This document shows, piece after piece, positions 6,632 to 53,932 of a stretch of 64,000 nucleotides of DNA; within the stretch, counting starts at the first letter, position 1; the number at the start of each line of letters is the position of its first letter. Position numbers and translations under genes: made by a program. Origin of the DNA: Patescibacteria group bacterium (lineage in GTDB: Bacteria > Patescibacteriota > Patescibacteriia > UBA1558 > GWA2-36-10); assembly GCA_041650755.1 (NCBI GenBank), contig JBAZKN010000003.1, positions 18,060-82,059 on the forward strand, in the 5' to 3' direction. The notes beneath the pieces are model-generated. The model was given only the letters and a program-made list of their open reading frames with translations. It was not told the origin of the DNA and did no database searches.

Positions 6632-6782
6632 CCCTTTCAGTGAGTCCAGAGTGGGTGATTAGGTAAGCTGTAGATAACTTTTTTTTGTAAGCCCGCATGT
6701 TTTTATTGACTTTTTGGCTTAAAAGTGGGAAAATTAAAGAAACAAATCGACACGGCGCTTTTATTTTTAACATATAAGCGCC

Positions 6783-8790: not shown

Positions 8791-8800
8791 CGGAATCATC

Positions 8801-9220
8801 ATGGCGGACATTTTCACAAGAAAAAAAAGAAGCGAAATAATGTCCAAAATAAAAGGCAAGGACAGCAAGATCGAAGTTGCCTTCAGAAAAAAGCTTTGGT
8901 CAAAAGGATTTCGTTACAGCAAAAATTCAAAAAATTATTTCGGAAAACCCGATCTGGCTTTGCCGAAGTACGAAACGGTCATTTTCGTCGATTCTTGTTT
9001 TTGGCACGGGTGTAAAAAACACGGCTCGATTCCGTCGACAAGAAAGAAGTTTTGGACGGAAAAAATAAATCGAAACAAAGCCAGAGACGGGGAAGTCGAC
9101 AGACATTATAAAAAGAAGGGATGGATCGTCATTCGGACATGGGAACACGAGATGCGTAAAAACCCCGACGAATTAATTGATAGGATTGTTTTGATTTTAA
9201 AAAATGTCTCCAGAGTTTAA
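8801..9220 (+). CDS. vsr: very short patch repair endonuclease
   Basis: 139 aa; FVDSCFWHGC motif; starts 10 nt after the REase stop. Confidence 0.85.
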   Translation: MADIFTRKKRSEIMSKIKGKDSKIEVAFRKKLWSKGFRYSKNSKNYFGKPDLALPKYETVIFVDSCFWHGCKKHGSIPSTRKKFWTEKINRNKARDGEVDRHYKKKGWIVIRTWEHEMRKNPDELIDRIVLILKNVSRV

Positions 9221-9377
9221 AACAGGTGGAATATTTTGAATAATTTAAACTAGAAGTATGAATAAAGAAACACCGGTTGAAAGTTTAGAGGTATGGCTAT
9301 CAAACAAACCATTTTGGGAAAAGTTTGTCTAGAAAATTAATCTTGAAAAGGAATTATTAACGGACGAAGATATTGAT

Positions 9378-11933: not shown

Positions 11934-12073
11934 TAGGAATTTATGTTAAGTGGTCGTACTTAAATTGAAATATTTAATTTTAAAATAAATTGTTGTAATT
12001 ATCCGTAGTTATTAAGATTATTACCTGTAGATAACTCAGCCTTCGCAAAAACCCTAACCTAAGCTAATATACG

Positions 12074-12094
12074 ATGGACATTTGTCCATTTTTT
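12074..12094 (+). terminator. rho-independent terminator after the RloC-like gene
   Basis: ATGGACA-TT-TGTCCAT perfect 7-bp hairpin followed by TTTTTT. Confidence 0.6.
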
Positions 12095-12294
12095 GGTTAA
12101 AATGTAATTGACAATTAAGTGACCTAAACCCGTCGTTTTCGGCGGGCATGGTCTCAAATCGTAACTCACATACAACCCGTCATTCAGGGCGTGAGTTACG
12201 TTATGCAGGGAAACTTGCATAGGGGCTTTAAAACCCTCCTGGTGGCGGGCTTTATGTTTGGCCCGCGTTTCCGGGAAAAGCGAAAGGAAACGTC

Positions 12295-13356
12295 ATGTCT
12301 TTAATCATCTCTCAGGGCGGAAGAAACGCCCGAAAAATCGACAAGACCGGTTTTGACAAGGAAGACTATCTGCAACAATACATTCGGGAAAATCCCGAAG
12401 CCATTCCGGTCTATGAAATCGCCCAAGACAAAAGGTTGTTTGTCGCCGCCCGTGAATTTCCGACCGAATCCGGTCCGATTGACGCGCTGGCCGTGGACAA
12501 AGACGGCGACATCTATGTCGTTGAAACCAAACTGTACAAAAACCCCGACAAAAGAACCGTTGTCGCCCAAGCGCTGGACTACGGCGCTTCGCTCTGGAAA
12601 CATTCCGGCGACTTTTCCGAATTTTTGAGCCTGCTTGACTCTGAAATTCAAGACAAATTCAATCTCACTTTTCCCGAAAAGGCAAAAGATTTTTTTGGTT
12701 TGACCGACGAGCAGTCAAGCGCCCAACTTGACGCCATGCAAAGAAATCTGCGCGAAGGCAATTTGAAGTTTGTCATTTTGATGGACTCAATGGAAGAAAG
12801 ACTCAAAGACCTCATAATCTATGTCAACCAAAACAGTCAGTTTGATATTTACGCCGTGGAATTGGAATACTACAAATTCAACGACTACGAAATCATGATT
12901 CCCAAGATTTTCGGGGTGGAAGTCAAAAAGAACGTCGGCACAACCGCAAACGCCAAAAGATTCAAATGGGACGAAGCCAAGTTTTTCAACTACGCCAAAC
13001 AAAACCTGTCCCAAGACATCTGTGATCAAGTGTTCAAGCTTTTCGCTTTCAGTAAAGACAAAGCTTCATCAATCAATTACGGCACCGGCAGTTATCCAGC
13101 ATTTTCACCCGTCTTTTCAAAGATAAGCGACAAATCGCTTTTCACTTTGACTTTGGACGGCGTTATCAGATTAAGCTTTAACTTTGAGTGGGCTTTTCGC
13201 GACAACGAAGCGTTGGCCAAAAAGTTCAACACCAGACTCAAAGAAATCGGAGTTATTATGCCCAAAGATTTTTTGCAGCTTCGTCCCAGCGTTGAATTCA
13301 AACAGTGGGGAAACAAGACGCAAGATATCATTAAAATAATAAAAGAATTAACATAA
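12295..13356 (+). CDS. PD-(D/E)xK nuclease-fold protein (NucS/DUF4263-like core), function unknown
   Basis: [21 protein letters not shown] = D..D/E-x-K restriction-endonuclease-like motif at aa 60-82; about 270-aa C-terminal extension without motifs; GC-richer than flanks. Confidence 0.45.
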
Positions 13357-13367
13357 CAAAAAACCAT

Positions 13368-13685
13368 ATGAAGAAATGTCCGTTTTGCGCCGAAGAAATC
13401 CAAGACGAAGCCGTCAAATGCAAACATTGCGGCAGCGATTTGGTCAAGCAGGAAAAGAGTGCGCCGCTTCAGGCCCAATCGATTTCCAATCCCAAGAGCG
13501 GGAAAAACAAGATGGTCGGCGGTTGCGCTTTGATCATCCTCGGCTTCATTATTGTTTTCTCAAGCGCTGCTTCCGGCGCTCAAGAAGGTTTAGGTTGGTT
13601 GGTGGTGCCGGCCGGCATGGCCATTTTGGCCGGATTGATAATTCTTTTGCTCGGCAAATTCGAAAATTGGTATCATTGGAAATAA
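13368..13685 (+). CDS. zinc-ribbon membrane protein
   Basis: N-terminal CPFC..(11)..CKHC zinc ribbon followed by two TM helices; 105 aa; starts 12 nt after upstream stop. Confidence 0.45.
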
Positions 13686-13724
13686 CGAGGTAAAAGATTG
13701 AACAACCGATTGTCTTTGACTTTT

Positions 13725-14309
13725 TCAAGTCGCGGTTTCATGCCCGTCCAGTTTTCGGTCGGGTTTTGAATTTTCTTCATTTTTGTCATCATTCGACTTT
13801 TTTGTATTGTCATCGGGATTTTTGTTTTTCAAAGTTTTTTCGATCTTTACCTGCTTGTTCAAGTTCGGATCACGCCAAGCGATCATCATGTCTTTTATTT
13901 TTTCTAAGCGCTCATTGGTCAGCAGACCCGCTTGATCATTTACCTGAATCGCATGGTTGTGATTGTGGGTGACTTTTTCCACGAATTCTTTGCTTCTGGT
14001 TTTCAGCCAAAACAAGACATAAGTGGGAACGCCGTCTTTGATTCCCTGAATGACTCTGCTTTGCGCCATGTCCGATATCAGCAAGGTGCCTTCTTTGCAA
14101 GCGTCTCTGACTTCGGCGGCGAATTTCCGGTCTTCTTGTGTCCAGCGATAAAAAGTGGAGGGATTGATACCAGATCTTAAGCAAGCCGTTGCGATAATCG
14201 GATTTTTTCGCAGTTCTTCAAGCAAGTCTTTTTTTATTCGACTTTTTCTTTTTTTGACGGTGATGGCCCGAGTTTTTGTCGGGTCCTTTTTTGGTTTGTT
14301 TATTGTCAT
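13725..14309 (-). CDS. HTH DNA-binding protein, phage terminase small-subunit-like
   Basis: N-terminal HTH IIATACLRSGINPSTFYRWTQEDRKFAAEV resembling terS-type HTH; K/D/E-rich tail; 4-nt overlap with upstream ParB-MTase gene. Confidence 0.35.
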   Translation of the reverse strand: MTINKPKKDPTKTRAITVKKRKSRIKKDLLEELRKNPIIATACLRSGINPSTFYRWTQEDRKFAAEVRDACKEGTLLISDMAQSRVIQGIKDGVPTYVLFWLKTRSKEFVEKVTHNHNHAIQVNDQAGLLTNERLEKIKDMMIAWRDPNLNKQVKIEKTLKNKNPDDNTKKSNDDKNEENSKPDRKLDGHETAT

Positions 14310-15703
14310 ATTTTTTTAGTTAACATCGGTTGGTTTATTTTTTTCGGTTTTTGTCCGGTTGTTTTTTCCCATCTTCGCAAAATCACCTGGGCATACACCG
14401 GTGACTTTTCCATCAAAAAGCAACGGCGCTTCATGGCGGTGGCGGCTATGAGCGTTGAACCCGAACCCCCGAACGGTTCGATTATGATGTCGTCTCGTTT
14501 GGTCAGCACTTTGACATAGGGGATGAGTATTTCAACGGGTTTGGTGCCAAAGATTATACCTTGCCCCGATGACTTTTGATCATCGGCTTTGTAACTGATG
14601 AAATCTGTCGGACAGATTTTTTTACCTTTTTCATAGCCTTCCCAGTGCGGTTTGCCGGAGATGGCAAACAAAGCGTTTTCGTATTCTTGTTGAAGCAAAG
14701 AATCGGCTTCTTGATCAACATTCAGTTCAATATCACCTTCGGTTCCCACCAAAGCGATATCGTGCTTGTTGAAGAATCGATGCTTGGCGGAAAATCCCTG
14801 GGTGCGGTTGGGCAAATGCCAAACAATGGTGTTTCGGTATTTCCAGTGTTTCTCCAGCTCGTTCCATATTATTTTTAGATTCTTGGGATTTTCAAAAACA
14901 ATGATGGAAAAGTCCGGTTTTTGAATTTTGGCGATATTAGTCATCCAAAGTTCGGTGAAGTTGTCGGGCAAAATATCGGTTTCCAAATATCGGCGGTTTT
15001 TCTTCACGCCAAAGCCGGTGGTGACCCCGTCCTTTTGTTTGGTTTTGCCTTTGAGATAATCAAGCAGGTAAGGAGGATCGGTAAGACACATGTCGGCTTT
15101 TTCATTGCCCATGAGTTTCAGGACATCGGCTTCAACGGTGCTGTCGCCACACATCAGTCTTGAACCGTTCAGTTCGTAGATGTCGCCTTTTTGCACGGAA
15201 ATGTTTTTGATGTCCAGTTTTGCCAATTCCTTGTTTAAATCAAACATTTCCGGTTCGCTTTCGAGTCCGAAAATTTCGTCCAGTTCTTCCGAGGAAAAAC
15301 CAACGTCTGAAAGCAGCGATTCGTCAAACTCGGCAAGCAGGGAATAATCGAATTCGCCGACATTTTTATTCAACCTGATATTGAGCTCTTTTTCTTTCTT
15401 TTCGTCGGGAATGTTCACATATACCACCGGGACTTCTTTGTAGCCCAAAGCTTTGGTGGCTTTCAGGCGCATGTGACCTCCAATCAGAATATTTTTGCGG
15501 TTTTCGGCCCCGTTGGCAATCAGCGGATCGCACAAGCCGAAGCGTCGTATCGATTCGGTCAGTTGTTCCATGGCTTCTTTATTATGTTTGCGGGGATTAT
15601 ACTCCGCCGGTTTCAACGTTGAGATCGGTAAATGAATGATTTTAAGATTGTTTGTTTCAGTCATAATTTTTTGATTAATTTTTAGCGATAAATAAAACGA
15701 CAC
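14306..15703 (-). CDS. ParB-like nuclease domain fused to beta-class DNA amino-methyltransferase (N6-adenine or N4-cytosine)
   Basis: N-terminal ParB/Srx motifs (LKPAEYNPRKH, IGGHMRLKA); motif IV CLTDPPY precedes motif I FGGSGST (beta-class order). Confidence 0.8.
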   Translation of the reverse strand: MSFYLSLKINQKIMTETNNLKIIHLPISTLKPAEYNPRKHNKEAMEQLTESIRRFGLCDPLIANGAENRKNILIGGHMRLKATKALGYKEVPVVYVNIPDEKKEKELNIRLNKNVGEFDYSLLAEFDESLLSDVGFSSEELDEIFGLESEPEMFDLNKELAKLDIKNISVQKGDIYELNGSRLMCGDSTVEADVLKLMGNEKADMCLTDPPYLLDYLKGKTKQKDGVTTGFGVKKNRRYLETDILPDNFTELWMTNIAKIQKPDFSIIVFENPKNLKIIWNELEKHWKYRNTIVWHLPNRTQGFSAKHRFFNKHDIALVGTEGDIELNVDQEADSLLQQEYENALFAISGKPHWEGYEKGKKICPTDFISYKADDQKSSGQGIIFGTKPVEILIPYVKVLTKRDDIIIEPFGGSGSTLIAATAMKRRCFLMEKSPVYAQVILRRWEKTTGQKPKKINQPMLTKKI

Positions 15704-16140: not shown

Positions 16141-17067
16141 ATGATTTATGAATTAAAAGTAAGGGTTGACGGGCATTCAACTATCCGTGATTCTTATATC
16201 ATGAATGTTGATCCGTATTTATTGAAAATAGATTGCAATGAATATGGAGGCGTTGATTATTTATCTGTCGGTGTTAGGGTAAAAGATTTCCGTAATTATT
16301 TGCCCAAATTAAATATTTCTAAAGATGACCGTGCTCACACCTTGAATATTCCCGATAATCATTTTCATGCAGACATAATAAATTTATTGCAACACATTGA
16401 ATCCTTAGGCAGTTTTTGGCTTGGTGTTAAAAAAATTTATTGGGATAATCCAATATCAACATGGATTCCAGAAAATGAAGAGGAGGAGAAAATTTTAAAA
16501 AACGACAGCACCATTAACGGTTATAGTTTTGATAAAAAATATGAACCAAATATTGTTGAGTTTAGTTCCGGCATTCTTAGACAAATTATAGATAATAGAA
16601 ATTTTTATAAACGTTTGGTGATCCCGCTATCTTTTTACAGGGAAGGCAGAAATGAATTTGAATCTAAAAGATATATTCAGGCTTTTTATAATTTTTATTT
16701 TTATCTTGAGGATTTATACGGTAACGGCAAAACGAAGAATAATCAAATTGAGAATGAATTTTTAAATTCCAAACAATTCGTTGAAGCAGTGGAAGAAACA
16801 TTGGTTTTATTTAGCACCAATGGTTATGAAAAGCATTTTAGAAAACTTCAAGAACTTTTGTCTTCAAAAAAGTATGACTATCGCACGGAGGGCGTTGTCA
16901 AATTGATTGTTAGTATCAGGGGCAACTTGCACCACTTTTCTCAGAAAAGTACGTTACGGCTTGGACATTATTTCAATCAAGAAGAATTTAAAACGATGGC
17001 TTTTCTTCTGATGTCAATTTGCTTAAAGACGTTTACATATTTAACAACGGGAGTAAATCCTGAATAA
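16141..17067 (+). CDS. hypothetical protein (AT-rich island cargo)
   Basis: 308 aa, no recognisable motif; very AT-rich, Y/N/K-rich composition. Confidence 0.35.
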   Translation: MIYELKVRVDGHSTIRDSYIMNVDPYLLKIDCNEYGGVDYLSVGVRVKDFRNYLPKLNISKDDRAHTLNIPDNHFHADIINLLQHIESLGSFWLGVKKIYWDNPISTWIPENEEEEKILKNDSTINGYSFDKKYEPNIVEFSSGILRQIIDNRNFYKRLVIPLSFYREGRNEFESKRYIQAFYNFYFYLEDLYGNGKTKNNQIENEFLNSKQFVEAVEETLVLFSTNGYEKHFRKLQELLSSKKYDYRTEGVVKLIVSIRGNLHHFSQKSTLRLGHYFNQEEFKTMAFLLMSICLKTFTYLTTGVNPE

Positions 17068-17071
17068 TGTT

Positions 17072-17473
17072 ATGGCTGATATGTGTTCAATAATTTCGAT
17101 ATCAACAGTGAGCTCATTTTCCGTTTTTATATGGAAAATTATAGTATTGCTTTGGCCATGGTATTGGTTTGTCATTTTTTTATGTCTTGCAACTTGGATG
17201 ACTTGGGAAATAATTACCCGCAATGGTTCAGCGCATTATAATTCTGCAAATGGTTTTTCGCCTGGTTTTAATCGGTTTGTTGGTAGTGGAACTTATATGC
17301 TATTGCAGTCTTTGCTTTTTTTACTTTTTAAAATATTTTTTGGTGAATCCGTCTACTGTATGATTTGGCCTTATCCGGTTCATCTGGTATTATTTTTATC
17401 GACAGGATTGCTTTTGCATTTATCAGGATTTTGGCCTTATCTGAAAGAACCTGGTTACCATCGTCGCAGGTGA
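17072..17473 (+). CDS. hypothetical membrane protein
   Basis: 133 aa with four hydrophobic segments; 4 nt after preceding stop. Confidence 0.3.
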   Translation: MADMCSIISISTVSSFSVFIWKIIVLLWPWYWFVIFLCLATWMTWEIITRNGSAHYNSANGFSPGFNRFVGSGTYMLLQSLLFLLFKIFFGESVYCMIWPYPVHLVLFLSTGLLLHLSGFWPYLKEPGYHRRR

Positions 17474-17615
17474 AGGTAAATGCCGAGTATAATTGAATTC
17501 TTTAACCATAAGGTATTTACTTGTTGTTTAATAAAAAATAATGGATAAAAAAATGAGGACAGATGTGACTCCGTCCTCAGCAGTTGTGTTGTGACCGGTT
17601 ATTCCGGTTGTTTTT

Positions 17616-18866
17616 TTACCCTCCAAATTTCCAGGTGACACCGGCCGAGATGACATGAACGTCGACTTCGTATTTTCCCGGTGCCAGGAAGCCGAAGTGT
17701 TTTTCAACTTCTCTTTTACCCCAGCCGTAGGTATAGCCGAGATCGAAATCCAAGTTGTCGTTCGGTCTGTATCCAAGGCCGAAAGAAATTCCCGGGCCGT
17801 CCACTTCCGGTGCGGTCGGCGTGGTGGTTTCCCGCGGAATGGCCGCGGTATGCCAGCAGACGCCGCTTCTCAAAAGCCACTTTTCGGTCAGCTCGTACTC
17901 GGCGCCGAGATGGAAGCTGAAGTTGTCATGCCAATTCAGCTTTTGGCCGTATTCAAGCAGCTCGCCGATTTTGGCCGTCATCTGTTTGGCCGCCGAATAG
18001 TCGTACCAGTTGGCGTCAGCCAGAATTCTCAACCTGTTATTCGGTTCAAACTTCAAGCCGAGTCCGAGTCTTCCCGGAAAGTAGACCGAAGCGGTCATGC
18101 CGTATTTTCCAAGAGGCAAGCCCAGCAGCTCCGGCTTGGTTGATCCTTTCAGGCGGACCTCCATGGGCAGACTGTAGGACGCGCCGACAGTCCATTGGTC
18201 GTTGAGCCGGTAGAGAATTCCGATTCCGCCACCCAGTCCGATGCCGTCAGCTTCAGCTTCCATACTTGCCATGTCCAGTCGAAAGTTTCCAAGTTGGAGA
18301 CTGCCGGCATTGATAAACTGGGCGTAGCCGATATTCAGGCTCAGTCCGACGGAGAGTTCATTATTGACCCGGTAGGCCATTGCCGGAACCAGCGAAGTCA
18401 GACTCAGCATTCCTTCTTTCCAGGGAAAGTCGCCGTCATACTTGCTGCCAAGACCGCCAACAACGTGCCAGCCCGCTCCAATCGTCAACCGGTCGTTCAG
18501 GCGTGTGGAAAATCCGCCGAAAGGCAGAGGGATGATTCCTCCCTCCGAATTTTTGGATAATTCTCGGCCGCATTCCGACCACTGATATGTCCCTTCGGCG
18601 ATAATTGATTCCATTCCGAGTTGTAGTGAAGTACGCTTGATGTTGCTTAACCCCGCAGGGTTGTAGTAGAACGCCGAAGCGTCTACCGGATCGGCGATTT
18701 GAGCACCGCACATTCCCATGGCTCTGGGACCGACACTGCCGCTGACGCGGTTGACTCCTCCGGCTATTGCCGAATTGACGGTCAACAAGACCAGCATAAA
18801 TACCGCAATCGTTATCTTTTTCATCGTTTGTCCTCCCTTGGTAAAGGGTTTCGGTTTAAGGTTCAT
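17616..18866 (-). CDS. FadL/TodX-family outer-membrane transporter for hydrophobic compounds
   Basis: Signal peptide MKKITIAVFMLVLLTVNSAIA (probable start 18824 preceded by AGGGAGG RBS); glycine/aromatic-rich beta-strand pattern and C-terminal WKFGG barrel terminus typical of the FadL/Toluene_X family; GC-rich. Confidence 0.7.
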   Translation of the reverse strand: MNLKPKPFTKGGQTMKKITIAVFMLVLLTVNSAIAGGVNRVSGSVGPRAMGMCGAQIADPVDASAFYYNPAGLSNIKRTSLQLGMESIIAEGTYQWSECGRELSKNSEGGIIPLPFGGFSTRLNDRLTIGAGWHVVGGLGSKYDGDFPWKEGMLSLTSLVPAMAYRVNNELSVGLSLNIGYAQFINAGSLQLGNFRLDMASMEAEADGIGLGGGIGILYRLNDQWTVGASYSLPMEVRLKGSTKPELLGLPLGKYGMTASVYFPGRLGLGLKFEPNNRLRILADANWYDYSAAKQMTAKIGELLEYGQKLNWHDNFSFHLGAEYELTEKWLLRSGVCWHTAAIPRETTTPTAPEVDGPGISFGLGYRPNDNLDFDLGYTYGWGKREVEKHFGFLAPGKYEVDVHVISAGVTWKFGG

Positions 18867-18983
18867 TCAAGATACAATCCAACAGGTTATAGTACTCTTA
18901 TTTGTTGAAAAAGTCAAGGTTGGCTGGACATTTTTTGAAAAATGTGCTATTATGCTTTGTTGCCTGAATTTGGTATAATTTAG

Positions 18984-20027
18984 GTGGTTCTTTTGAAAGT
19001 CTGTCAACAATTACAACCCATAGGAGGAGTCGAAATGAACAGAACCGTGTCGATTCAGCGACGATCTGTCAAAGCGGCTCCTTCAGTAAATGGAGCCGAA
19101 AAGAAACGCAGTTGGTTGAATGCCGTAAAACTGCACACGAGGCGCATTGCCATTGAGTTGTTGAATCTCCTGATTAATCATGACTTGCTGTTCTGGTTGG
19201 TCGGGTTGGTCAACAAAAAGGTTAATCTGATTGAGTCCGTATTCCTGGTTTATCCGGCGAATGAGAAATATGCGCTGGCGTATGTATACCCGTGTCGCCT
19301 ACCAAAGGTAAAGTGGAATCCCATCCCGGGCGGGCTGTTGTGGCAAAACGGAAAATTAACCGTCATGTTCATGATTTCCGCAACCAATGGCCAATTCACT
19401 GATCCACAGAATACGGAAAATCTCCGTCGGATGTCCGATCGAATGGAAAGGCTGCGCCAACTGTTTGGTGCCAGGAGAAAGACGTTTGCCGGAATAGTAC
19501 CCGGAGTCCTGTACGCAGGGAAAATCATCCGGGAAGCTCCGGAAGCGGATTTGACCGCCCAGGCGGTTGCCCAGGCAATTGATTCAGTGAAAGTTGAAGA
19601 ATCGCTTGGCGACGACACGCCGGTCATCATCCTTGGTGGCAGAGGTTTTATCGGCCGTCGAGTAATCGGGTTACTCAAAGATTCTAATGTCTTCAGTATT
19701 GACTCGTCAGACGGTCAGGGCAGTAAAGATTGGCCAAACCACCTTCGCGGGCAGCGAGTCATCGTTGTCAACATCACTCTCAACAATGCCCTTAAGGATT
19801 ACCTTGACGTAATCTGGCCGGGCACGGTGGTGATCAATGAGGTTTATCCTGAGCCGAACTCGGCTATTCTGGAGAGACTGAAAAACAATGGCTGCAGCTG
19901 TCATCACGTGGTTGGTGTCCAAGCCAACGCCTTTCCGTCTTTTCCGGCAGCTTATCATGGAGCGATTCCTTGTTGCGCGGCATGGCCTTCGTCAGAAATG
20001 AAGGTCGTCGTGCGAAGAATCGTTTAG
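18984..20027 (+). CDS. NAD(P)-binding Rossmann-fold protein, function unknown
   Basis: ILGGRGFIGRR (GxGxxG); probable start MNRTVS at 19035 with AGGAGG RBS; GC-rich, co-oriented islet with the FadL gene. Confidence 0.4.
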   Translation: MVLLKVCQQLQPIGGVEMNRTVSIQRRSVKAAPSVNGAEKKRSWLNAVKLHTRRIAIELLNLLINHDLLFWLVGLVNKKVNLIESVFLVYPANEKYALAYVYPCRLPKVKWNPIPGGLLWQNGKLTVMFMISATNGQFTDPQNTENLRRMSDRMERLRQLFGARRKTFAGIVPGVLYAGKIIREAPEADLTAQAVAQAIDSVKVEESLGDDTPVIILGGRGFIGRRVIGLLKDSNVFSIDSSDGQGSKDWPNHLRGQRVIVVNITLNNALKDYLDVIWPGTVVINEVYPEPNSAILERLKNNGCSCHHVVGVQANAFPSFPAAYHGAIPCCAAWPSSEMKVVVRRIV

Positions 20028-20104
20028 CAGGCGGGTGTCTTTCCGAAGATGCCCGTCTTTTTTATTAGCTTAAAATGTTGTATAATAAACTTAGTTAATA
20101 AAAT

Positions 20105-22036
20105 ATGAGCATACTTTTTGATAAAATTAACATTCTATTGCTAGTTACCGCTTTATTAAATCTTTTTTTAGGGTTTATTATTTTTTTTAATGGTCGTAAT
20201 AAAAAGATTAATATTGTTTATACTTTGAATATCGTAACAATTATTAGCTGGGTTTTAGGGATGGTTTTATATCGTTCAGCTCCTTTAGAAACAAGTTTAT
20301 TCTGGTGTACAGTTTTATACATAGCGCCTACTTTGATTGCCAGCAGTTTTTTATATTTTACTTACATTTTTCCAATGAAGATTGATAGTAATGTGACTTT
20401 AAAGAGTGTCATAATTTTTTCTATTAATACGATTATCATAATAATGTTAGCTTGGCCTGGGTTGGTTATTAAAGCAGTGAATATTAATCCTGGATTTGAA
20501 AAAGAAATCATATTTACAAAGTTCTATTGGTTTTACTTTTTGTATATTGCCGGATTTTTTTCTTATGGTTTTCAAAGACTATTTTTGCGGTATTTAAAGA
20601 GTTCAGGAATAGAACGTCTGCAAATAATTTATTTTTTATTGGGATATGCTATAGCGTCCAATTTAGCGTTTGTAACTAATTTGATAATGCCATGGATTGG
20701 TTATTTCTTTTTGAATTGGCTTGGTCAAGTATTTACAGTGACCATGGTTGGATTTACGACATATGCCATTCTCCGTTATCGCTTGATGGATATTCGTATC
20801 GTCGCCAGAAAACTTTTTATTTATATCGGAATAGCCGGCTTTGCTTATGGTATTTTTTATTTTTTAATTTGGTTTTATAATCATGCATTCGGTAGTGTAT
20901 TTTCTTCCGCCGCCTACGTTACTGGTTTGGTTGTAGCCCCGTTTTTTGTTTTAGCATTTTATAGTTTAGATAGGTACTTAAAGATTTTCGCAAATAAGTA
21001 CCTTTTTGTTTCTCTGTATAATTATCAAGACACCATAAGCAAACTAACCGACAAATTAAATTATTATATTGATCTGGATGAGATTATAGGTTTGATTGTT
21101 GATACTATCAAAAAAACAATGCAGTTAGACCGCGCAGGTGTTTTGTTGGTCAATTCGCAAACAGATCCTATTAAATACCAAATTGCCAAAGTAATTGGTT
21201 TTAATCGTCAAAATGGTATTTCGTTGGTTCAAGACAATTTCCTCACGAAATATTTGTCAAAAACACAGAAACCGTTAGTTCGAGATGAGCTTAATTTTTT
21301 AGTTAGAAATTTTAAAACTGTCGAAGAAAAGCAAAATTTTGAAAAATTATATGATCACATGAAGCATATTGAGGCATCTATATGTTTACCCTTGATGAGC
21401 AATCAAAAATTAATTGGCATTGTCGTCTTGGGGTCAAAAATATCAGGTGATGCTTACAGCAAGGAAGATTTGGAATTGCTTAATACGCTTGCCAATCAAG
21501 CCGGTATCGCCGTTGATAATGCCCGGCTTTATAAAGAAGTCCAGGACTTCAGCCAGACTCTAAAACAAAAAGTTAATGAGCAGACCAAAGAAATCAAAAC
21601 TCAAAGCAAAGACATTGAAGAGAAAAATAAATATCTTCAAGAGTTGCTGAATATGAAGACTGATTTTTTGCGGGTAGTCAACCATCAATTAAATACGCCG
21701 TTGGCGGTAATGAAAGGTTATTTTTCCATGATGGAAGAAGGATCATACCCGAAAGAAAAAGCGATGAAATCAGTCAAAGGCGGGTTGGAGAGGATCAGCT
21801 CAACGGTGTCAGACTTCTGGGATGCCTATGAGCTTGAAGGCGAAAGAATGAATATGGAGCCGCAAAAAACCGATATCACAGAAATCGTCAACCGTTTGAT
21901 TCCGGAAAAACAAAAGTTGCAGTTGGCCCAGGAAAGAAATTTGGAAGTATCCGTTAAAAAGCCTAATTTCAAAATACCCCTTGTTTGGTGCGACTACAAA
22001 AAAAACCGCTCATGTTATTTCCAACCTTTTGGATAA
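20105..22036 (+). CDS. sensor histidine kinase, N-terminal part (multi-pass membrane sensor + GAF-like + HisKA); frame broken near 3' end
   Basis: More than 7 hydrophobic helices, then H-box VNHQLNTPLAVMKGY; ORF terminates shortly after an A8 tract and the ATP-binding domain continues in another frame. Confidence 0.75.
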   Translation: MSILFDKINILLLVTALLNLFLGFIIFFNGRNKKINIVYTLNIVTIISWVLGMVLYRSAPLETSLFWCTVLYIAPTLIASSFLYFTYIFPMKIDSNVTLKSVIIFSINTIIIIMLAWPGLVIKAVNINPGFEKEIIFTKFYWFYFLYIAGFFSYGFQRLFLRYLKSSGIERLQIIYFLLGYAIASNLAFVTNLIMPWIGYFFLNWLGQVFTVTMVGFTTYAILRYRLMDIRIVARKLFIYIGIAGFAYGIFYFLIWFYNHAFGSVFSSAAYVTGLVVAPFFVLAFYSLDRYLKIFANKYLFVSLYNYQDTISKLTDKLNYYIDLDEIIGLIVDTIKKTMQLDRAGVLLVNSQTDPIKYQIAKVIGFNRQNGISLVQDNFLTKYLSKTQKPLVRDELNFLVRNFKTVEEKQNFEKLYDHMKHIEASICLPLMSNQKLIGIVVLGSKISGDAYSKEDLELLNTLANQAGIAVDNARLYKEVQDFSQTLKQKVNEQTKEIKTQSKDIEEKNKYLQELLNMKTDFLRVVNHQLNTPLAVMKGYFSMMEEGSYPKEKAMKSVKGGLERISSTVSDFWDAYELEGERMNMEPQKTDITEIVNRLIPEKQKLQLAQERNLEVSVKKPNFKIPLVWCDYKKNRSCYFQPFG

Positions 22037-22406
22037 CGCCGTTTATTATACCCGCAAAGGTGCAGTCACTCTTTCGTATGAAATGGCAGGCAAAGATTAT
22101 TTGAAAATAAATATCAAAGATACCGGTGTGGGCATATCCGAAGAAGGCAAGAAAAAACTGTTTCAAAAATTTTCCCGCGGTCAGAACGCCACCGACCTTC
22201 GGCCGGACGGTTCCGGGCTCGGACTGTTTATCGCCAAAAAAATCGTTGAAGGAAACAACGGGGAAATATCCTGTTTCAGCGAAGGCATAGGCAAAGGCTC
22301 AACTTTCAGTTTTACTATTCCTATTTACAAAAACCAGCAGACAGCCATAGGACAAGAAAAGCCGGTTACCAGAGAAAAAAAGATTGTCATATTCGACCAA
22401 GATTAA
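21981..22406 (+). CDS. histidine kinase HATPase_c domain (out-of-frame continuation of 20105..22036)
   Basis: N-box NLLDNAVYYT, G1 DTGVGI, G2 GSGLGLFIAK. Confidence 0.7.
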   Translation: MFGATTKKTAHVISNLLDNAVYYTRKGAVTLSYEMAGKDYLKINIKDTGVGISEEGKKKLFQKFSRGQNATDLRPDGSGLGLFIAKKIVEGNNGEISCFSEGIGKGSTFSFTIPIYKNQQTAIGQEKPVTREKKIVIFDQD

Positions 22407-22425: not shown

Positions 22426-22863
22426 ATGAAACCTACCAACATAATGAAGTCAGACAAAGGCCGAATCCTTTTGGTTGAAGACGAACAGGGTTTGGTTGAC
22501 ATTTACCATGATTTTTTGCTGAATAACGGCTATGATTTTTTATCCACCAAAAACATTGAAGAGGCTTTAACGCTGACTGAATTTGAGCAGCCCGATTTGG
22601 TCTTGCTTGATATCATTATTCCCAAGCCGGAGAATACCATTGCCGAACAGGGCTGGGAATATTTGGAGGCGGTGAAAAAAAATCCCAGGACCAAGGACAT
22701 TCCGATTGTCATTTTCACCAATCTTGATACGCACCGAGACAGAGTGAGAAGCCAAGAGATGGGCGCGGTGGCTTATATTTTTAAAAGGGATTGTACACCC
22801 AGAGAAGTGATGGAAGCAATCGATGAAATTATTAGAAGAGACAGGGAAAAGAAGAAAAAATGA
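22426..22863 (+). CDS. stand-alone response regulator receiver domain protein
   Basis: LLVEDE..DLVLLDIIIP phospho-acceptor Asp context; 145 aa, no output domain. Confidence 0.8.
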   Translation: MKPTNIMKSDKGRILLVEDEQGLVDIYHDFLLNNGYDFLSTKNIEEALTLTEFEQPDLVLLDIIIPKPENTIAEQGWEYLEAVKKNPRTKDIPIVIFTNLDTHRDRVRSQEMGAVAYIFKRDCTPREVMEAIDEIIRRDREKKKK

Positions 22864-24058: not shown

Positions 24059-25381
24059 ATGTATAGTATGATTTTAAATGAAGACAAAATCATAATCGAA
24101 ATTGATACCATTATTATAGGAGGTGGTATTTCAGCCATCTTTGTTGGTTTGGAATTTATTAACAAGGGTTTTAATGATTTCGTGATTTTAGAGAAAGAAG
24201 ATAGACCGGGCGGCTTATGTCGCTCTTTTCAGTTTGGAGAATTATATTACGATTTGGGCGCTCATGCTTTGCATAAACAAGCTATATTGTCGTCTGACAA
24301 ACTAAGGGAAACTATTAATCCAAATAAACTATATTGTCAGAAGAGAAAAGCTAAAGTATTTATCTTTGATAAATTGATTCCGCACCCTTTTCAATTGCAT
24401 ATTTTTTACGCCCCAATGAATATCAAGCTCAAATGTTTTTATGGTTATTTAGTCAAGAAGAATATAATGCCAGGTAACCTTAAAGAGTGGTTATTATCTA
24501 AATTTGGCAAACAGGTTTGTGAATATTTTCTATTTCCCTATAATGAAAAAGCGTGGCGAACCGATTTAAGTAATATATCTTTGAATTGGATCAACCGAGT
24601 ATCGGCCGGTAATTCAAAATTTATAAAAGGATTATTTTTTAAAGGTGATAAAAATTATAGTTCAAACGAATTTGTTTGTTATCCGTCAAACGGTGGCTTT
24701 GAAAATTTATTTTCAGACGGCATAAAAAAATTATCCAGTTTTATTAAGATTAATGAAGAGGTGATTGGAGTTGATTTGGAAAATAAATTAGTACAGGTTA
24801 AGAATGGGGTCGTATATCATTACGATAAATTAATTTCAACGGTGCCAATAGATATTTTGGTAACAAGACTAATCGAGACCAAGGATAATGAAATTATCAA
24901 ATTGGTAAGTGGGCTGGAAAAAGTTTCCACATGTATCGTCACTTTTTTGACGACAAAGCAATCGACTGATTTACAAAGAGTTTATGTTCCTGAGAAAAAG
25001 TATCTGAGTCAAAGAATTACCATTAATTCCAATTCGAGCGGATTTTTTAAGGAAAAGAGCGAGTCATTATTCTCTTTAGAAATTTCTTACAAAAAAAGAA
25101 ATGATTTACCTGCCGAAGATATTATTATCGACGACTGTAAAAAATTGCTCAAAGATGTCGGTTTGGTAAAATCTAATAATGACATTAAGAATTTTAAAAT
25201 AGAGTTTTTCGAGTATATGTATCCCACACAGACCGTTCGACTGGACAATATAATTTTGCAGACAAAATCATATTTGCAGAAATACGATTGTTATACAATT
25301 GGTCGATTTGGATCATGGAATTATGCCAATATTGATGGTATACTGGATGAAGGAATTGAATTAATTGATAAATATTTTTAA
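24059..25381 (+). CDS. FAD/NAD(P)-binding oxidoreductase (amine oxidase/protoporphyrinogen oxidase-like)
   Basis: Dinucleotide-binding IIIGGGISAIFVGLEF..ILEKEDRPGG at N-terminus; 12 nt after upstream stop. Confidence 0.55.
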   Translation: MYSMILNEDKIIIEIDTIIIGGGISAIFVGLEFINKGFNDFVILEKEDRPGGLCRSFQFGELYYDLGAHALHKQAILSSDKLRETINPNKLYCQKRKAKVFIFDKLIPHPFQLHIFYAPMNIKLKCFYGYLVKKNIMPGNLKEWLLSKFGKQVCEYFLFPYNEKAWRTDLSNISLNWINRVSAGNSKFIKGLFFKGDKNYSSNEFVCYPSNGGFENLFSDGIKKLSSFIKINEEVIGVDLENKLVQVKNGVVYHYDKLISTVPIDILVTRLIETKDNEIIKLVSGLEKVSTCIVTFLTTKQSTDLQRVYVPEKKYLSQRITINSNSSGFFKEKSESLFSLEISYKKRNDLPAEDIIIDDCKKLLKDVGLVKSNNDIKNFKIEFFEYMYPTQTVRLDNIILQTKSYLQKYDCYTIGRFGSWNYANIDGILDEGIELIDKYF

Positions 25382-26567
25382 AATTATGACAATAAATACT
25401 GATGCAAAAAAAATTGAGGAGCTTCTGACACGCGGAGTCGAAGAGGTAATTGAAAAAGATATCTTAAAAAATAAACTGAGGACCGGAAGGCAATTGAGAG
25501 TGAAATTAGGTATTGACCCCACAAGTCCAAACATTCATATCGGCAGATCAATCCCTCTGCTTAAATTGCGAGATTTTCAGGAGTTGGGGCATAAAGTAGT
25601 TTTTATAATTGGTGATTTTACCGGAGTGATTGGCGATACATCCGACAAAGACAGTGAACGGCCGATGCTAAGTGAGAGACAGGTTAATGAAAATATGAAA
25701 AGTTACATTGAGCAGGCCAAGAAAATCATTGATATAGAAAAGTGCGAAGTTCACTATAATAGTGAATGGTTAAAAAAATTGGATTATCATGAAATTGGCA
25801 GGCAAGCGGACGTATTTTCCTTAAATGAATTTATTTCAAGAGAAAATATTAGAAAGAGGCTGGATTCTGGTAAAACCATATCGTTGAGAGAGTTACTGTA
25901 CCCATTAATGCAGGGTTATGATTCCGTAGCAATAAAAGCGGATGTAGAAATTGGCGGGACAGACCAAAGATTTAATTTATTGGCTGGCAGAGAATTGCAA
26001 AGACACTATAAACAAGAACCCCAGGATATTATTACTAATCCTCTAATTGAAGGACTAGATGGTAGGAAAATGAGTTCTAGCTGGGGTAATACTATCAACT
26101 TATTTGATTCAGCTAATGATATATATGGTAAAGTCATGTCTTTGCAAGACGAACTAATTGTAAAATATTTTGTTTTAACAACCAGAGTGGATTTGGCTGA
26201 AATTAATAAGTTGGATAATGAAATGCGATCAGGTAAAAATCCCAGAGATTTGAAAATGAGGTTGGCTTTTGAGATCGTTAAATTTTATCATTCAGCAGAC
26301 CAAGCCAAAGAAGCTGAAAAATATTTTATTAATACTTTCAGCAAAAAAGAAATTCCGGATAATATTCCTTCGTTAAAGCCAAGCCAATATGATATCGTGA
26401 CTGTTCTCTTGGAATCTAAAATTTCACCGACAAAGTCCGAAGCCAGACGGGTTATTGAACAAGGTGGAGTTAAGGTTAATAGTACGGTTGTTGATGATTT
26501 AAAAAAGATAGTAGAAGTAGGGGACGTTATTCAGAAAGGTAAAAGATTTTTTGTAAAAATTGCTTAA
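25365..26567 (+). CDS. tyrS: tyrosine--tRNA ligase
   Basis: Class I signatures HIGR (HIGH variant) and KMSSS (KMSKS variant); C-terminal S4-like domain; overlaps the oxidoreductase gene by 17 nt (alt start M8 at 25386). Confidence 0.85.
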   Translation: MINIFKIMTINTDAKKIEELLTRGVEEVIEKDILKNKLRTGRQLRVKLGIDPTSPNIHIGRSIPLLKLRDFQELGHKVVFIIGDFTGVIGDTSDKDSERPMLSERQVNENMKSYIEQAKKIIDIEKCEVHYNSEWLKKLDYHEIGRQADVFSLNEFISRENIRKRLDSGKTISLRELLYPLMQGYDSVAIKADVEIGGTDQRFNLLAGRELQRHYKQEPQDIITNPLIEGLDGRKMSSSWGNTINLFDSANDIYGKVMSLQDELIVKYFVLTTRVDLAEINKLDNEMRSGKNPRDLKMRLAFEIVKFYHSADQAKEAEKYFINTFSKKEIPDNIPSLKPSQYDIVTVLLESKISPTKSEARRVIEQGGVKVNSTVVDDLKKIVEVGDVIQKGKRFFVKIA

Positions 26568-32643: not shown

Positions 32644-32714
32644 ACCCCGACCTATGTGGCTCAAATCCCGTTATGGTAAAATAGCTAAATAACCCTTATA
32701 ATACCTTATATACT

Positions 32715-52175: not shown

Positions 52176-52176
52176 A

Positions 52177-52647: not shown

Positions 52648-52667
52648 CCTAAAAAATAACTAAAACT

Positions 52668-53876: not shown

Positions 53877-53932
53877 ATTTACCCTGTTAAATAAATTTAT
53901 TTATCTTTGTTTATTATACTAAATTTTTACAA

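What the first reader, a model, noticed from the sequence alone, without database searches (positions are those of the whole stretch)
17560..20040. GC-rich islet encoding an outer-membrane FadL/TodX beta-barrel in an otherwise monoderm-like (CPR-type) gene context
The segment is roughly 20 percentage points higher in GC than the flanks. It encodes a FadL-family outer-membrane transporter with a classical Sec signal peptide and a strong AGGGAGG RBS, plus a co-located Rossmann-fold protein. Patescibacteria-like organisms are generally thought to lack an outer membrane, and this window has no OM biogenesis genes. An OM barrel here therefore suggests one of three things: recent HGT from a diderm, a misassembled or chimeric contig, or a genuinely diderm host.
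Basis: partly seen in the sequence, partly recalled or inferred. Interest (0 to 1): 0.5.

Follow-up and report, generated by a model that had tools for sequence, protein, structure and literature searches.

The report
Outer-membrane-type fatty-acid channel in Patescibacteria
A bacterium from a group thought to have no outer membrane carries a long-kept, working gene for an outer-membrane-type fatty-acid channel next to a lipid-reductase-like enzyme, so the GC-rich patch is native and may show how these lipid-dependent bacteria take up fatty acids.

Summary
Window 17,55x-20,05x has GC 0.50-0.58 against 0.28-0.36 in the flanks. It holds a full-length FadL/TodX-family beta-barrel gene (17616-18824, minus strand) and a divergent 330-aa Rossmann-containing gene (19035-20027).

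The "foreign islet" reading does not hold.
- The contig is Patescibacteria, by NusA.
- The 330-aa gene belongs to a family whose named members are all CPR. In distant CPR genomes it also sits directly upstream of the same 7TM-GAF histidine kinase.
- The barrel belongs to a small clade found in Buchananbacteria and Falkowbacteria-type genomes. It has two paralogue groups, conserved synteny (barrel, reductase-like enzyme, kinase, response regulator) and dN/dS of 0.07-0.18.
- In every CPR locus examined both genes are richer in GC than their surroundings. Polarised synonymous changes are balanced, so the composition is stable rather than decaying.
- A second assembly spans both junctions, which argues against a chimera.

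The 330-aa protein folds like acyl-ACP reductase and the carmabin TAD domain. In one Buchananbacteria genome the same slot holds a true acyl-ACP reductase homologue.

My best reading is an old, native module for scavenging and processing fatty acids. Where a beta-barrel sits in a cell reported to lack an outer membrane is unresolved, and that is the interesting part.

The parts
17616..18824 (-). FadL/TodX/OmpP1-family beta-barrel gene, 402 aa. The mechanical ORF runs on to 18866.
   Evidence: Pfam PF03349, E 7.6e-52, full length. A PDB profile search hits CymD, TbuX, TodX and FadL at E 5e-34 to 6e-18. The AF2 model has pLDDT 81.5 and TM 0.78-0.80 to FadL crystal structures. The NPA hatch motif and a C-terminal Phe are conserved. 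dN/dS is 0.07-0.18.
18762..18824 (-). Signal peptide (MKKITIAVFMLVLLTVNSAIA, with an AxA|GG cleavage site).
   Evidence: Read from the sequence. Conserved across the clade in alignment A2.
18832..18839 (-). Ribosome-binding site AAGGGAGG, 7 nt upstream of the ATG.
   Evidence: Sequence.
17554..17579 (-). Terminator-like hairpin with a T-run after the barrel gene. It marks the left edge of the GC-rich block.
   Evidence: Consensus scan only: 10-bp stem followed by TTTTTTT. Nucleotide homology to L015 and L016 ends at 17545-17548.
18889..18953 (.). Back-to-back promoter-like sites in the 210-nt intergenic region: TTGACT-17-TACTAT on the minus strand and TGGACA-17-TATTAT (with TG) on the plus strand.
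   Evidence: Consensus scan only.
19035..20027 (+). 330-aa gene of a family whose named members are all CPR, with a fold like acyl-ACP reductase (AAR) and the carmabin TAD domain.
20029..20058 (+). Terminator-like hairpin right after the 330-aa gene. It marks the right edge of the GC-rich block.
   Evidence: 13-bp stem with a T-run. Homology to L015 ends at 20042.
20105..22406 (+). 7TM-GAF-HisKA-HATPase histidine kinase, the conserved neighbour of both genes. In the window it is split by a frameshift at an A8 run (21998-22005).
   Evidence: Pfam HisKA_7TM, GAF and HisKA. It is called as one 766-aa gene in L001. A8 against A7. It is adjacent to the barrel and/or the 330-aa gene in L011, L014, L015, L018, L019, L035, L036, L038 and L045.
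22426..22863 (+). Stand-alone receiver-domain response regulator, downstream of the kinase.
   Evidence: Response_reg. 83-98% identical in L011, L015 and L019, and 62% in L045.

Best explanation
The GC-rich block is not a foreign island. It is two native, separately transcribed genes, each of which is GC-rich wherever it occurs in Patescibacteria. They happen to lie between very AT-rich genes.

Gene 1 encodes a Sec-exported FadL/TodX-family beta-barrel. It belongs to a small clade found in ABY1-type Patescibacteria (Buchananbacteria, Falkowbacteria). It entered or was retained long ago, has since been inherited vertically and duplicated, and is kept by purifying selection.

Gene 2 encodes a family whose named members are all CPR. 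It has the two-domain fold of acyl-ACP reductase and the carmabin TAD domain, and it sits immediately upstream of a 7TM-GAF histidine kinase in every locus examined.

Inferred mechanism. The barrel admits long-chain fatty acids or similar hydrophobic molecules from the environment or the host. The reductase-like enzyme acts on the resulting acyl-thioesters. The kinase and regulator tune the module. Together they serve lipid scavenging in an organism from a group reported to be unable to make fatty acids.

Shown here: family membership, fold, native status, selection, synteny and compositional equilibrium. Inferred: the substrate, the functional coupling, and the regulation. Unresolved: which membrane the barrel sits in.
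For: Host identity.
- The window's NusA is identical to an NCBI protein labelled 'Patescibacteria group bacterium'. All named top hits are CPR, at 75-83% identity.

Barrel family.
- Pfam, PDB profile and fold matches.
- The NPA hatch motif and a C-terminal aromatic residue are invariant.

Native status of the barrel.
- In an NJ tree the window protein groups with P0001-P0013 in one clade with two sub-groups.
- Genome titles for clade members include Ca. Buchananbacteria and Patescibacteria. A 31%-identical cluster comes from Ca. Falkowbacteria.
- The order barrel / reductase-like gene / kinase / regulator recurs in L014, L015, L038 and L011+L016. L018 has it at 57% barrel identity. A paralogous barrel-methyltransferase-kinase-regulator cassette occurs in L019 and L045.
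- dN/dS is 0.07-0.18.

Composition.
- The barrel gene has GC 0.41-0.575 against 0.32-0.45 for the rest of the locus in all loci with CPR titles or CPR-like sequence context. Relatives with non-CPR titles show no consistent excess.
- The 330-aa gene is GC-richer than the rest of its locus in four of five loci, including distant CPR genomes. In L014 the rest is mostly the barrel gene itself.
- Polarised synonymous AT>GC and GC>AT changes are balanced: 12:12, 21:18, 11:13 and 9:13.

Lipid link.
- In L018 the gene between the barrel and the kinase is a true AAR homologue. BLASTP against S. elongatus AAR gives E 4e-21, with the catalytic Cys294 and the TTG motif aligned. PDB phmmer gives 6e-22 for 4ppm (PigE is my own recollection of that entry) and 6e-16 for AAR.

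Background from the literature.
- CPR are reported to be unable to synthesise fatty acids de novo, yet to have fatty-acid-based lipids (PMC7906910; PMC7242380).

Assembly.
- A second contig spans both junctions.
Against: - Patescibacteria are reported to lack an outer membrane, PilQ and TonB (PMC6744442, PMC7906910, PMC12102498). A classical barrel therefore has no obvious home, and its assembly route (BAM) is unaccounted for.
- The barrel and the 330-aa gene are divergent, each with its own promoter-like site and terminator-like hairpin. The 330-aa gene is absent next to the barrel in L006, L008 and L019. So the functional coupling rests on adjacency within one sub-clade plus the L018 case.
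- The 330-aa family has no sequence-level match to AAR. hhalign aligned only the Rossmann loop, and NCBIfam found nothing.
- The equivalence of its invariant Cys-Cys to the catalytic cysteine was not shown.
- The barrel scores far below the E. coli FadL equivalog cut-off (58 against 585 bits), so the substrate is unknown.
- One orthologue (L015, L037) carries an in-frame TGA, so the gene may be dispensable in that lineage.
- Several MAG titles read 'uncultured Gammaproteobacteria'. I regard these as unreliable labels, because those MAGs carry the 330-aa gene whose named homologues are all CPR (L015 on the same contig as the barrel; L011 on another contig of the CAZHUO MAG).
- Why GC3 stays near 0.6 in AT-rich genomes is unexplained.
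- The polarisation counts are small and rest on parsimony.
Confidence: 0.6

Rival explanations
1. Recent horizontal transfer of a GC-rich fragment (barrel plus Rossmann gene) from a diderm donor into an AT-rich Patescibacteria genome.
For: There is a sharp GC step of about 20 points. The barrel family is otherwise typical of diderms. The segment borders a variable defence and mobile region containing a serine recombinase, restriction-modification genes and a ParB-methylase.
Against: - The Rossmann gene is a CPR-wide family with its kinase partner conserved.
- Barrel orthologues at 57-92% identity keep the same neighbours.
- The same GC excess is seen in all CPR copies, down to 33% identity.
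- Synonymous changes are balanced rather than biased towards AT.
- dS between orthologues is 0.4 to above 1.3, with dN/dS at or below 0.18.
- The best relatives named as non-CPR are only 26-33% identical.
- There are no flanking repeats or tRNA at the borders.
- The clade has no hit on viral contigs.
Confidence: 0.03
2. Misassembly: the GC-rich piece belongs to another organism and was joined into the contig.
For: There is a composition step at both edges. In a close relative (GCA_964535715.1 and two Logan assemblies) contigs break inside the barrel / 330-aa intergenic region.
Against: - An ENA contig of 75.6 kb, with different ends from the window and an A7/A8 difference, covers 7616-28867 at 99.995% identity.
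- L014, L015, L037 and L038 join the barrel to the 330-aa gene. All except L037, whose contig ends first, also join the 330-aa gene to the kinase.
- The edges coincide with terminator-like hairpins and gene ends.
- Caveat: the two assemblies may share reads.
Confidence: 0.02
3. The host lineage (some ABY1-class Patescibacteria) is really diderm or keeps an outer lipid layer. The barrel is an ordinary outer-membrane channel assembled by a BamA-type machine encoded elsewhere in the genome.
For: - The barrel has a complete signal peptide, a hatch with the NPA motif, and a C-terminal motif matching the canonical beta-signal (S-A-G-V-T-W-K-F), all under purifying selection.
- There are two paralogues in one MAG.
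- Envelope data exist for very few CPR lineages (PMC8871954).
Against: - No outer-membrane family was found in the 64-kb window or in the annotated related loci.
- The pilus cluster lacks a secretin.
- Neighbours of CPR barrels include an LtaS-like gene and an LCP (LytR_cpsA_psr) gene. From my own knowledge these are typical of Gram-positive-type walls.
- The literature reports no outer membrane, PilQ or TonB in CPR (PMC6744442, PMC7906910).
- In the window's sub-clade the terminal Phe is followed by GG or longer tails, which from my own knowledge is unusual for BAM substrates.
Confidence: 0.17
4. The barrel is an exported epibiont tool. It is secreted by a cell with no outer membrane and inserts into the outer membrane of a Gram-negative host (or into a contact zone), opening a lateral route for host fatty acids or lipids towards the epibiont.
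For: - Groundwater CPR without an outer membrane have been imaged attached to Gram-negative hosts, and are thought to obtain lipids from them (PMC7906910).
- The barrel is linked to a reductase-like enzyme.
- C-terminal extensions after the Phe suggest relaxed BAM dependence.
- The gene sits at the edge of a fast-changing region.
Against: - I know of no precedent for a FadL-type barrel being delivered in trans.
- Spontaneous insertion from outside through an LPS leaflet is hard to picture.
- There is no secretion or delivery system beside the gene.
- The hatch and barrel look like an ordinary cis-acting FadL.
Confidence: 0.15
5. Decaying relic: a leftover outer-membrane gene with no present function.
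For: An in-frame TGA at codon 104 in the orthologue of L015 and L037.
Against: - dN/dS is 0.07-0.18 across five comparisons, including L015 itself at 0.072.
- The reading frame is intact in the window and in at least 12 other clusters.
- The ribosome-binding site, promoter-like site and terminator-like hairpin are kept.
Confidence: 0.03

Closest known systems
FadL / TodX / TbuX / CymD outer-membrane channels for hydrophobic compounds (Pfam PF03349; PDB 1t16, 3dwo, 3bs0, 3bry, 6z34)
   Same: Full-length Pfam match. The predicted fold has TM about 0.8 to the crystal structures. It has an N-terminal hatch with the NPA motif, a signal peptide, a C-terminal aromatic residue, and a similar length of about 380 mature residues.
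   Different: Only 17-20% identical to the solved members. It scores far below the NCBIfam equivalog cut-offs for FadL, AupA and BamG. It sits in a separate clade found in CPR genomes. The host phylum is reported to lack an outer membrane. The Phe is followed by GG in this sub-clade. The gene is consistently GC-richer than its genome.
Cyanobacterial acyl-ACP reductase (AAR, PDB 6jzq/6jzu) and the carmabin CarI terminal amidation domain (TAD, PDB 9e4s)
   Different: There is no detectable sequence homology beyond the nucleotide-binding loop. It is shorter after the candidate catalytic cysteine. It lacks a strict TTG junction motif (KTFAG instead). It is a stand-alone gene paired with a histidine kinase rather than with an aldehyde-deformylating oxygenase or an NRPS module.
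FadL-like barrels that are subunits of larger machines in Bacteroidota (BamG, PorV/PorQ, FilD)
   Same: The window barrel gives weak hits to the BamG, PorV-family and FilD models (E 3e-11 to 5e-16). There are structural hits to chain F of the Bacteroidota BAM complexes.
   Different: All scores are far below the family cut-offs. TM is only 0.56-0.61, against 0.8 for FadL. No partner genes of those systems are nearby.
Horizontally acquired genomic islands
   Same: Atypical composition, and a position beside a variable defence and mobile region.
   Different: Present with the same neighbours in related genomes. No integrase, repeats or tRNA at its edges. Composition is at equilibrium.

Membership tests
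OmpP1/FadL/TodX (PF03349) | Full-length match to the family profile above the curated cut-off | tested here: met
   176.6 bits against a cut-off of 29.7; protein residues 31-414 of the 416-aa ORF on profile positions 6-421 of 421. A clade profile hits CymD, TbuX, TodX and FadL chains at E 5e-34 to 6e-18.
OmpP1/FadL/TodX (PF03349) | Monomeric beta-barrel plugged by an N-terminal hatch domain | tested here: met
   AF2 model with pLDDT 81.5. Foldseek TM 0.78-0.80 to 3dwo, 1t16 and 2r4p over about 420 aligned columns. Residues 40-78 form a confident non-barrel N-terminal segment. The exact strand count was not verified.
OmpP1/FadL/TodX (PF03349) | Conserved NPA motif in the hatch | tested here: met
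   FYYNPAG: Y67, N69 and A71 are invariant across the 14 clade members. That NPA is a defining FadL feature comes from my own knowledge and from the names of PDB mutants (the 'delta NPA', N33A and P34A entries).
OmpP1/FadL/TodX (PF03349) | Sec signal peptide and C-terminal aromatic beta-signal | tested here: met
   The signal peptide ends AIA|GG. F414 is invariant. The window C-terminus S-A-G-V-T-W-K-F fits the canonical pattern, but is followed by GG. No dedicated predictor was run.
OmpP1/FadL/TodX (PF03349) | Located in an outer membrane and assembled by BAM | not testable with these tools
   The whole genomes could not be screened. No outer-membrane biogenesis gene was found in the window or the annotated related loci.
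E. coli-type FadL (NCBIfam NF007988 equivalog) | Score above the equivalog cut-off, implying the same function and substrate | tested here: not met
   58.3 bits against a cut-off of 585. It is a family member but not an orthologue. The substrate is inferred only.
Acyl-ACP reductase / TAD superfamily (330-aa gene) | Two-domain fold: an N-terminal domain plus a dehydrogenase-like NAD(P) domain | tested here: met
Acyl-ACP reductase / TAD superfamily (330-aa gene) | Detectable sequence homology to AAR or TAD | tested here: not met
   The PDB profile search returned only weak GxGxxG-region hits at E 0.09 or worse. hhalign against AAR aligned 24 columns at probability 3.9%. NCBIfam returned no family.
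Acyl-ACP reductase / TAD superfamily (330-aa gene) | Catalytic cysteine next to the nicotinamide, at the start of a helix | tested here: inconclusive
   C330 and C331 (PCCAAW) are invariant and lie at the start of a short helix. By hand count, the spacing from the V-I-[DN]-x-x-Y-P motif is 42 residues, against 47 in AAR. A global alignment did not pair the cysteines. No residue-level superposition was available.
Acyl-ACP reductase family (L018 388-aa neighbour) | Sequence homology with the catalytic Cys294 and the TTG motif conserved | tested here: met
   BLASTP against 6jzu gives E 4e-21 and 26% identity over 316 residues, with FAC aligned to FTC and TTGN to TTGH. phmmer gives 4ppm at 6e-22 and AAR at 6e-16.
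Recently acquired genomic island | Absent from close relatives, or present in a different location | tested here: not met
   The same gene order is found in L014, L015, L038 and L011+L016, and in L018 at 57% barrel identity.
Recently acquired genomic island | Composition drifting towards the host genome (amelioration) | tested here: not met
   Polarised synonymous AT>GC against GC>AT counts are 12:12, 21:18, 11:13 and 9:13 for the barrel, and 12:8 and 12:5 for the 330-aa gene. Counts are small.
Recently acquired genomic island | Integrase, flanking direct repeats or tRNA at the borders | tested here: not met
   Only short AT-rich chance repeats were found. The nearest tRNA is at 41303. The nearest recombinase is 11 kb away.

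The most novel reading that the evidence does not exclude
A lineage of Patescibacteria keeps, under purifying selection, a classical outer-membrane beta-barrel although the phylum is held to have no outer membrane.

This leaves two possibilities. Either some ABY1-class CPR (Buchananbacteria, Falkowbacteria) do have an outer lipid layer with a barrel-assembly route. Or the Sec-secreted barrel works outside its own cell, for example in the outer membrane of a Gram-negative host, as a tap for host fatty acids that feed an acyl-thioester-processing enzyme and a lipid-sensing two-component system.

Either outcome would change the picture of the CPR envelope or of how these bacteria obtain lipids.
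Probability: 0.3. Interest if true: 0.85.

Novelty: new variant of a known kind. Interest (0 to 1): 0.6.

Why it matters
Two open questions about Patescibacteria meet at this locus.

1. What is their cell envelope? Imaging of a few cells, and the absence of PilQ and TonB, point to a single membrane.
2. How do organisms that cannot make fatty acids obtain the fatty-acid-based lipids they contain?

A conserved, selected FadL-type channel, tied to an acyl-ACP-reductase-like enzyme and a membrane-embedded sensor kinase, is a concrete and testable candidate for the uptake step.

It also names specific lineages (Buchananbacteria, Falkowbacteria) in which the "no outer membrane" rule should be checked.

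The 330-aa family is a separate lead. Its named members are all CPR, it is highly conserved (50-70% identity across named CPR groups), it is unannotated, it has a reductase-like fold, and it has a fixed kinase partner.

There is also a practical point for genome scans. In these genomes a sharp GC step does not by itself indicate foreign DNA.

Tried and rejected
- Viral origin. A scan of IMG/VR with the barrel alignment found no relative.
- Island borders. No meaningful direct or inverted repeats flank the block, and there is no tRNA nearby.
- Sequence-level annotation of the 330-aa protein. Pfam gave only a sub-threshold Epimerase hit. NCBIfam gave nothing. The PDB profile search gave only GxGxxG-region hits. 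hhalign against AAR aligned only the Rossmann loop. A global pairwise alignment did not settle the cysteine equivalence.
- A conserved partner downstream of the barrel. The 348-aa proteins after the barrel in L018 and L019 are unrelated; the L018 one is a secreted SNase-type nuclease. Other neighbours (L002, L008, L022) have no family.
- A third assembly. The exact 344-aa and 402-aa products are not on record, so the 180-kb JGI/NCBI contig could not be fetched.
- Prior reports. Full-text searches for FadL or BamA together with Patescibacteria, and for CPR together with beta-barrel terms, found no paper discussing such a protein.
- Clade boundary. The word-based search suggested a sharp E-value gap (1e-62, then 1e-34). 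The exhaustive search shows a more gradual fall: 49 representatives at E of 1e-30 or better. Some intermediate ones are Falkowbacteria. So the clade edge is not sharp and most members carry no taxonomic label.
- BamA/Lpt screen of the whole genomes. This was not possible with the tools and caps available.


Full report

Yes. In 200-nt windows GC rises from 0.32-0.38 at 17000-17500 to 0.50-0.58 between about 17600 and 20050. It falls to 0.25-0.35 beyond 20100.

The block holds two divergent ORFs.
- The minus-strand ORF at 17616-18866 matches Pfam Toluene_X (OMPP1/FadL/TodX) over its whole length: E 7.6e-52, 176.6 bits, cut-off 29.7.
- Alignment with homologues puts its start at the ATG at 18824, giving 402 aa. 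The N-terminus MKKITIAVFMLVLLTVNSAIA|GG reads as a Sec signal peptide.
- The plus-strand ORF starts at ATG 19035 after GGAGGA, giving 330 aa. It carries an invariant GxGxxG.

A consensus scan finds back-to-back promoter-like sites in the 210-nt spacer. It also finds a terminator-like hairpin directly after each gene, at 17579-17554 and 20029-20058. The GC block therefore looks like two single-gene transcription units, and its edges are their terminators.

**2. How unusual is the composition?**

Per-gene GC in the window averages 0.408 (sd 0.053).
- The barrel gene is the richest of 45 genes (0.542; GC3 0.625). The 330-aa gene is third (0.504).
- A TrpRS-like gene (0.514; GC3 0.636) and a B12 radical-SAM gene (0.500) are equally rich.
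- The flanking genes are among the poorest, at 0.316, 0.356 and 0.335.

The genome is a mosaic gene by gene. The step looks dramatic because two rich genes lie between poor ones.

**3. Whose genome is it?**

The window's NusA is identical to an NCBI protein named 'Patescibacteria group bacterium'. Every named hit among the best 120 is a CPR lineage or carries only the label 'bacterium'.

The window has a type IV pilus cluster without a secretin. No outer-membrane family appeared in the Pfam scans of the large ORFs.

Positions 5312-15703 form a defence and mobile region. It contains a serine recombinase, M.HpaII/R.HpaII/Vsr, an AAA_13 ATPase and a ParB-methylase.

**4. Is the block a chimera?**

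No sign of it. An ENA contig (k141_2528913, 75.6 kb) covers window 7616-28867 at 99.995% identity. Its coordinates show that it begins 13.4 kb before the window and ends before the window does. It also differs by one base in a poly-A run. So it is a separate assembly, though it may come from the same reads.

The barrel / 330-aa / kinase join also recurs in other samples: L014, L015 and L038, and barrel / 330-aa in L037, whose contig ends before the kinase.

**5. Is it recent HGT?**

No, for four reasons.

*The 330-aa gene is not foreign.* It has more than 266 homologues at 50-88% identity. Every named one is CPR: Andersen-, Uhr-, Pace-, Staskawicz- and Parcubacteria. In distant CPR contigs it again lies just upstream of a 7TM-GAF-HisKA kinase (L035, L036).

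*The barrel has a long history in CPR genomes.*
- In an NJ tree it groups with P0001-P0013 in one clade with two sub-groups.
- GTDB records carrying clade members are titled Ca. Buchananbacteria or Patescibacteria. Several co-assembly MAGs are titled 'uncultured Gammaproteobacteria'. I regard that label as unreliable, because those MAGs carry the 330-aa gene whose named homologues are all CPR.
- A 31%-identical cluster is from Ca. Falkowbacteria.
- One MAG holds two paralogues on two large contigs (L016, L019).
- The exhaustive search finds 6,026 family representatives, only 49 of them at E of 1e-30 or better.
- The nearest relatives named as non-CPR are 26-33% identical.

*Synteny and selection.*
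- Nucleotide homology between the window and L015 runs from 17548 to 20042 at 90.7%, which is the block itself. It resumes in the kinase at 80%.
- Downstream of the barrel the neighbours differ between relatives. The barrel therefore marks the edge of the variable region.
- The kinase and regulator stay linked to the barrel in L018 (57% barrel identity). They also stay linked in a paralogous barrel / methyltransferase / kinase / regulator cassette in L019 and L045.
- dN/dS for the barrel is 0.07-0.18.

*Composition.*
- In every locus with a CPR title or CPR-like sequence context the barrel gene is GC-richer than the rest: 0.41-0.575 against 0.32-0.45, with GC3 of 0.42-0.66 where measured.
- Relatives with non-CPR titles show no consistent excess.
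- The 330-aa gene shows the same excess in four of five loci. In the fifth (L014) the rest of the locus is mostly the barrel gene.
- Synonymous changes polarised with an outgroup are balanced: AT>GC against GC>AT of 12:12, 21:18, 11:13 and 9:13.
- A newly arrived GC-rich gene decaying towards an AT-rich background should show an excess of GC>AT changes.
- The high GC is therefore a maintained property of these genes. Its cause is unexplained.

**6. What are the two proteins?**

*The barrel.*
- The AF2 model has pLDDT 81.5. It superposes on FadL crystal structures at TM 0.78-0.80, and on TodX, TbuX and CymD at about 0.7.
- The hatch motif FYYNPAG and the C-terminal Phe are invariant.
- In the window's sub-clade the Phe is followed by GG or a longer tail.
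- It scores far below the NCBIfam equivalog cut-off for E. coli FadL (58 against 585 bits). It is a family member of unknown substrate.

*The 330-aa protein.*
- It has no Pfam, NCBIfam or PDB sequence match beyond the nucleotide-binding loop.
- According to the TAD paper, TAD and AAR share a two-domain fold and a catalytic cysteine at the start of a helix that takes the acyl group from a carrier protein (bioRxiv 10.1101/2024.10.28.620694).
- The CPR family has an invariant Cys-Cys (PCCAAW) at the start of a short helix. I could not superpose residues, so the equivalence is only a candidate.

*Independent support from L018.* In the Buchananbacteria contig L018 the gene between the barrel and the kinase is a clear AAR homologue. 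BLASTP gives E 4e-21, with Cys294 and the TTG motif aligned. PDB phmmer gives 6e-22 for 4ppm (the PigE reductase domain, by my own recollection of that entry) and 6e-16 for AAR.

In summary, one or another reductase-like enzyme sits between a FadL-type channel and a 7TM-GAF kinase in several genomes of this lineage.

**7. Most likely function**

CPR bacteria are reported to be unable to make fatty acids, yet to contain fatty-acid-based lipids. They are thought to obtain these from hosts (PMC7906910; PMC7242380; PMC12455944).

The simplest reading is a lipid-scavenging module:
- a channel for long-chain fatty acids or similar hydrophobic molecules;
- an enzyme acting on acyl-thioesters;
- a membrane-embedded sensor kinase with a stand-alone receiver protein.

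The family assignments, native status, selection and linkage are shown. The substrate, the coupling and the regulation are inferred.

**8. What stays unresolved**

A beta-barrel of this type needs an outer membrane. The literature reports no outer membrane in imaged groundwater CPR, and no PilQ or TonB system across CPR (PMC6744442; PMC7906910; PMC12102498).

Neighbours of CPR barrels include an LtaS-like gene (L006) and an LCP-family gene (L042). From my own knowledge these fit a Gram-positive-type wall.

Two readings remain open. These lineages may have an unrecognised outer layer. Or the secreted barrel may work elsewhere, for example in a Gram-negative host's outer membrane. I could not screen the whole genomes for BamA/Lpt, so neither reading is excluded.

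An in-frame TGA in the orthologue of L015 and L037 shows that the gene can be lost or interrupted in one lineage.

**9. Novelty**

Automatic annotation already names such proteins, for example 'outer membrane protein transport protein [Patescibacteria group bacterium]' and a Falkowbacteria UniProt entry. So the sequences are public.

Full-text searches found no paper that discusses them. The library searched lacks most subscription journals.

I rate this a new variant of a known kind, with moderate to high interest. The interest lies in the envelope paradox and the link to lipid acquisition, not in the GC step.

Noticed in passing
window 12121-12237 (+): Full-length match to the Rfam LOOT RNA (RF03000): 83.3 bits against a gathering score of 46.4, E 3e-14. 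It lies inside the defence and mobile region, just upstream of an unannotated 353-aa ORF (12295-13356).
   Followed up: no
window 21998-22005: The window has A8 where the ENA contig of the same locus has A7. This splits the 7TM-GAF histidine kinase (766 aa in L001) into ORFs of 643 and 141 aa. It could be a homopolymer sequencing error or a length-variable run.
   Followed up: partly
L015 10001-11242 and L037 1715-2956: The 92%-identical orthologue of the barrel gene carries an in-frame TGA at codon 104 (TCG in the window) in two records. The rest of the gene is still under strong constraint (dN/dS 0.07). It could be a recent nonsense mutation, read-through or recoding.
   Followed up: partly
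L002-L005 and L011-L013 (GCA_964535715.1 and Logan assemblies): In the 88%-identical relative, four assemblies break inside the barrel / 330-aa intergenic region, leaving each gene 125-170 nt from a contig end. This suggests strain variation or a repeat there.
   Followed up: no
window 5312-15703: A defence and mobile region: large serine recombinase, M.HpaII / R.HpaII / Vsr, an 851-aa AAA_13/SMC-like ATPase, and a ParB-N-domain DNA methylase. The sequence on the far side of the barrel gene from its relatives' shared block (below 17548) is not shared with close relatives. Those relatives carry NERD, DUF2807 and Type ISP restriction genes instead (L002).
   Followed up: partly
window 25365-26567 and 28346-29680: Two class-I Trp/Tyr-type tRNA synthetase genes lie 2 kb apart with very different composition: GC 0.347 (GC3 0.307) against GC 0.514 (GC3 0.636). 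This is another example of gene-by-gene GC mosaicism in this genome.
   Followed up: no
window 32582-32646; L006 8304-8368; L007 4038-4102: A 65-nt intergenic stretch is 87.7% identical between the window and a distant CPR contig, next to radical-SAM genes in both. It contains two direct copies of about TGTTGCATTyrTCTCATTT. It has no stable RNA fold (z above 0) and no Rfam hit. It looks more like a pair of protein-binding sites.
   Followed up: partly
L019 6194-11215 and L045 3170-7709: A paralogous cassette: a second FadL-type barrel (36-40% identical), a class-I methyltransferase, a 7TM-GAF kinase (52-55% identical) and a receiver protein (62-83% identical). It is found in the same MAG as the window-type cassette (L019), and on a separate metagenome contig (L045).
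   Followed up: partly
window 48748-55672 and 33375-35165: A type IV pilus gene set: two PilB-type ATPases, PilC, pilins with N-methylation motifs, and LVIVD-repeat and PA14 proteins. No secretin gene is present, as reported for CPR.
   Followed up: no
L015, L016, L019, L021, L022 (record titles): Several GTDB-listed co-assembly MAGs carrying these CPR-type loci are titled 'uncultured Gammaproteobacteria bacterium'. Given their gene content this looks like a mislabel in the public records.
   Followed up: no
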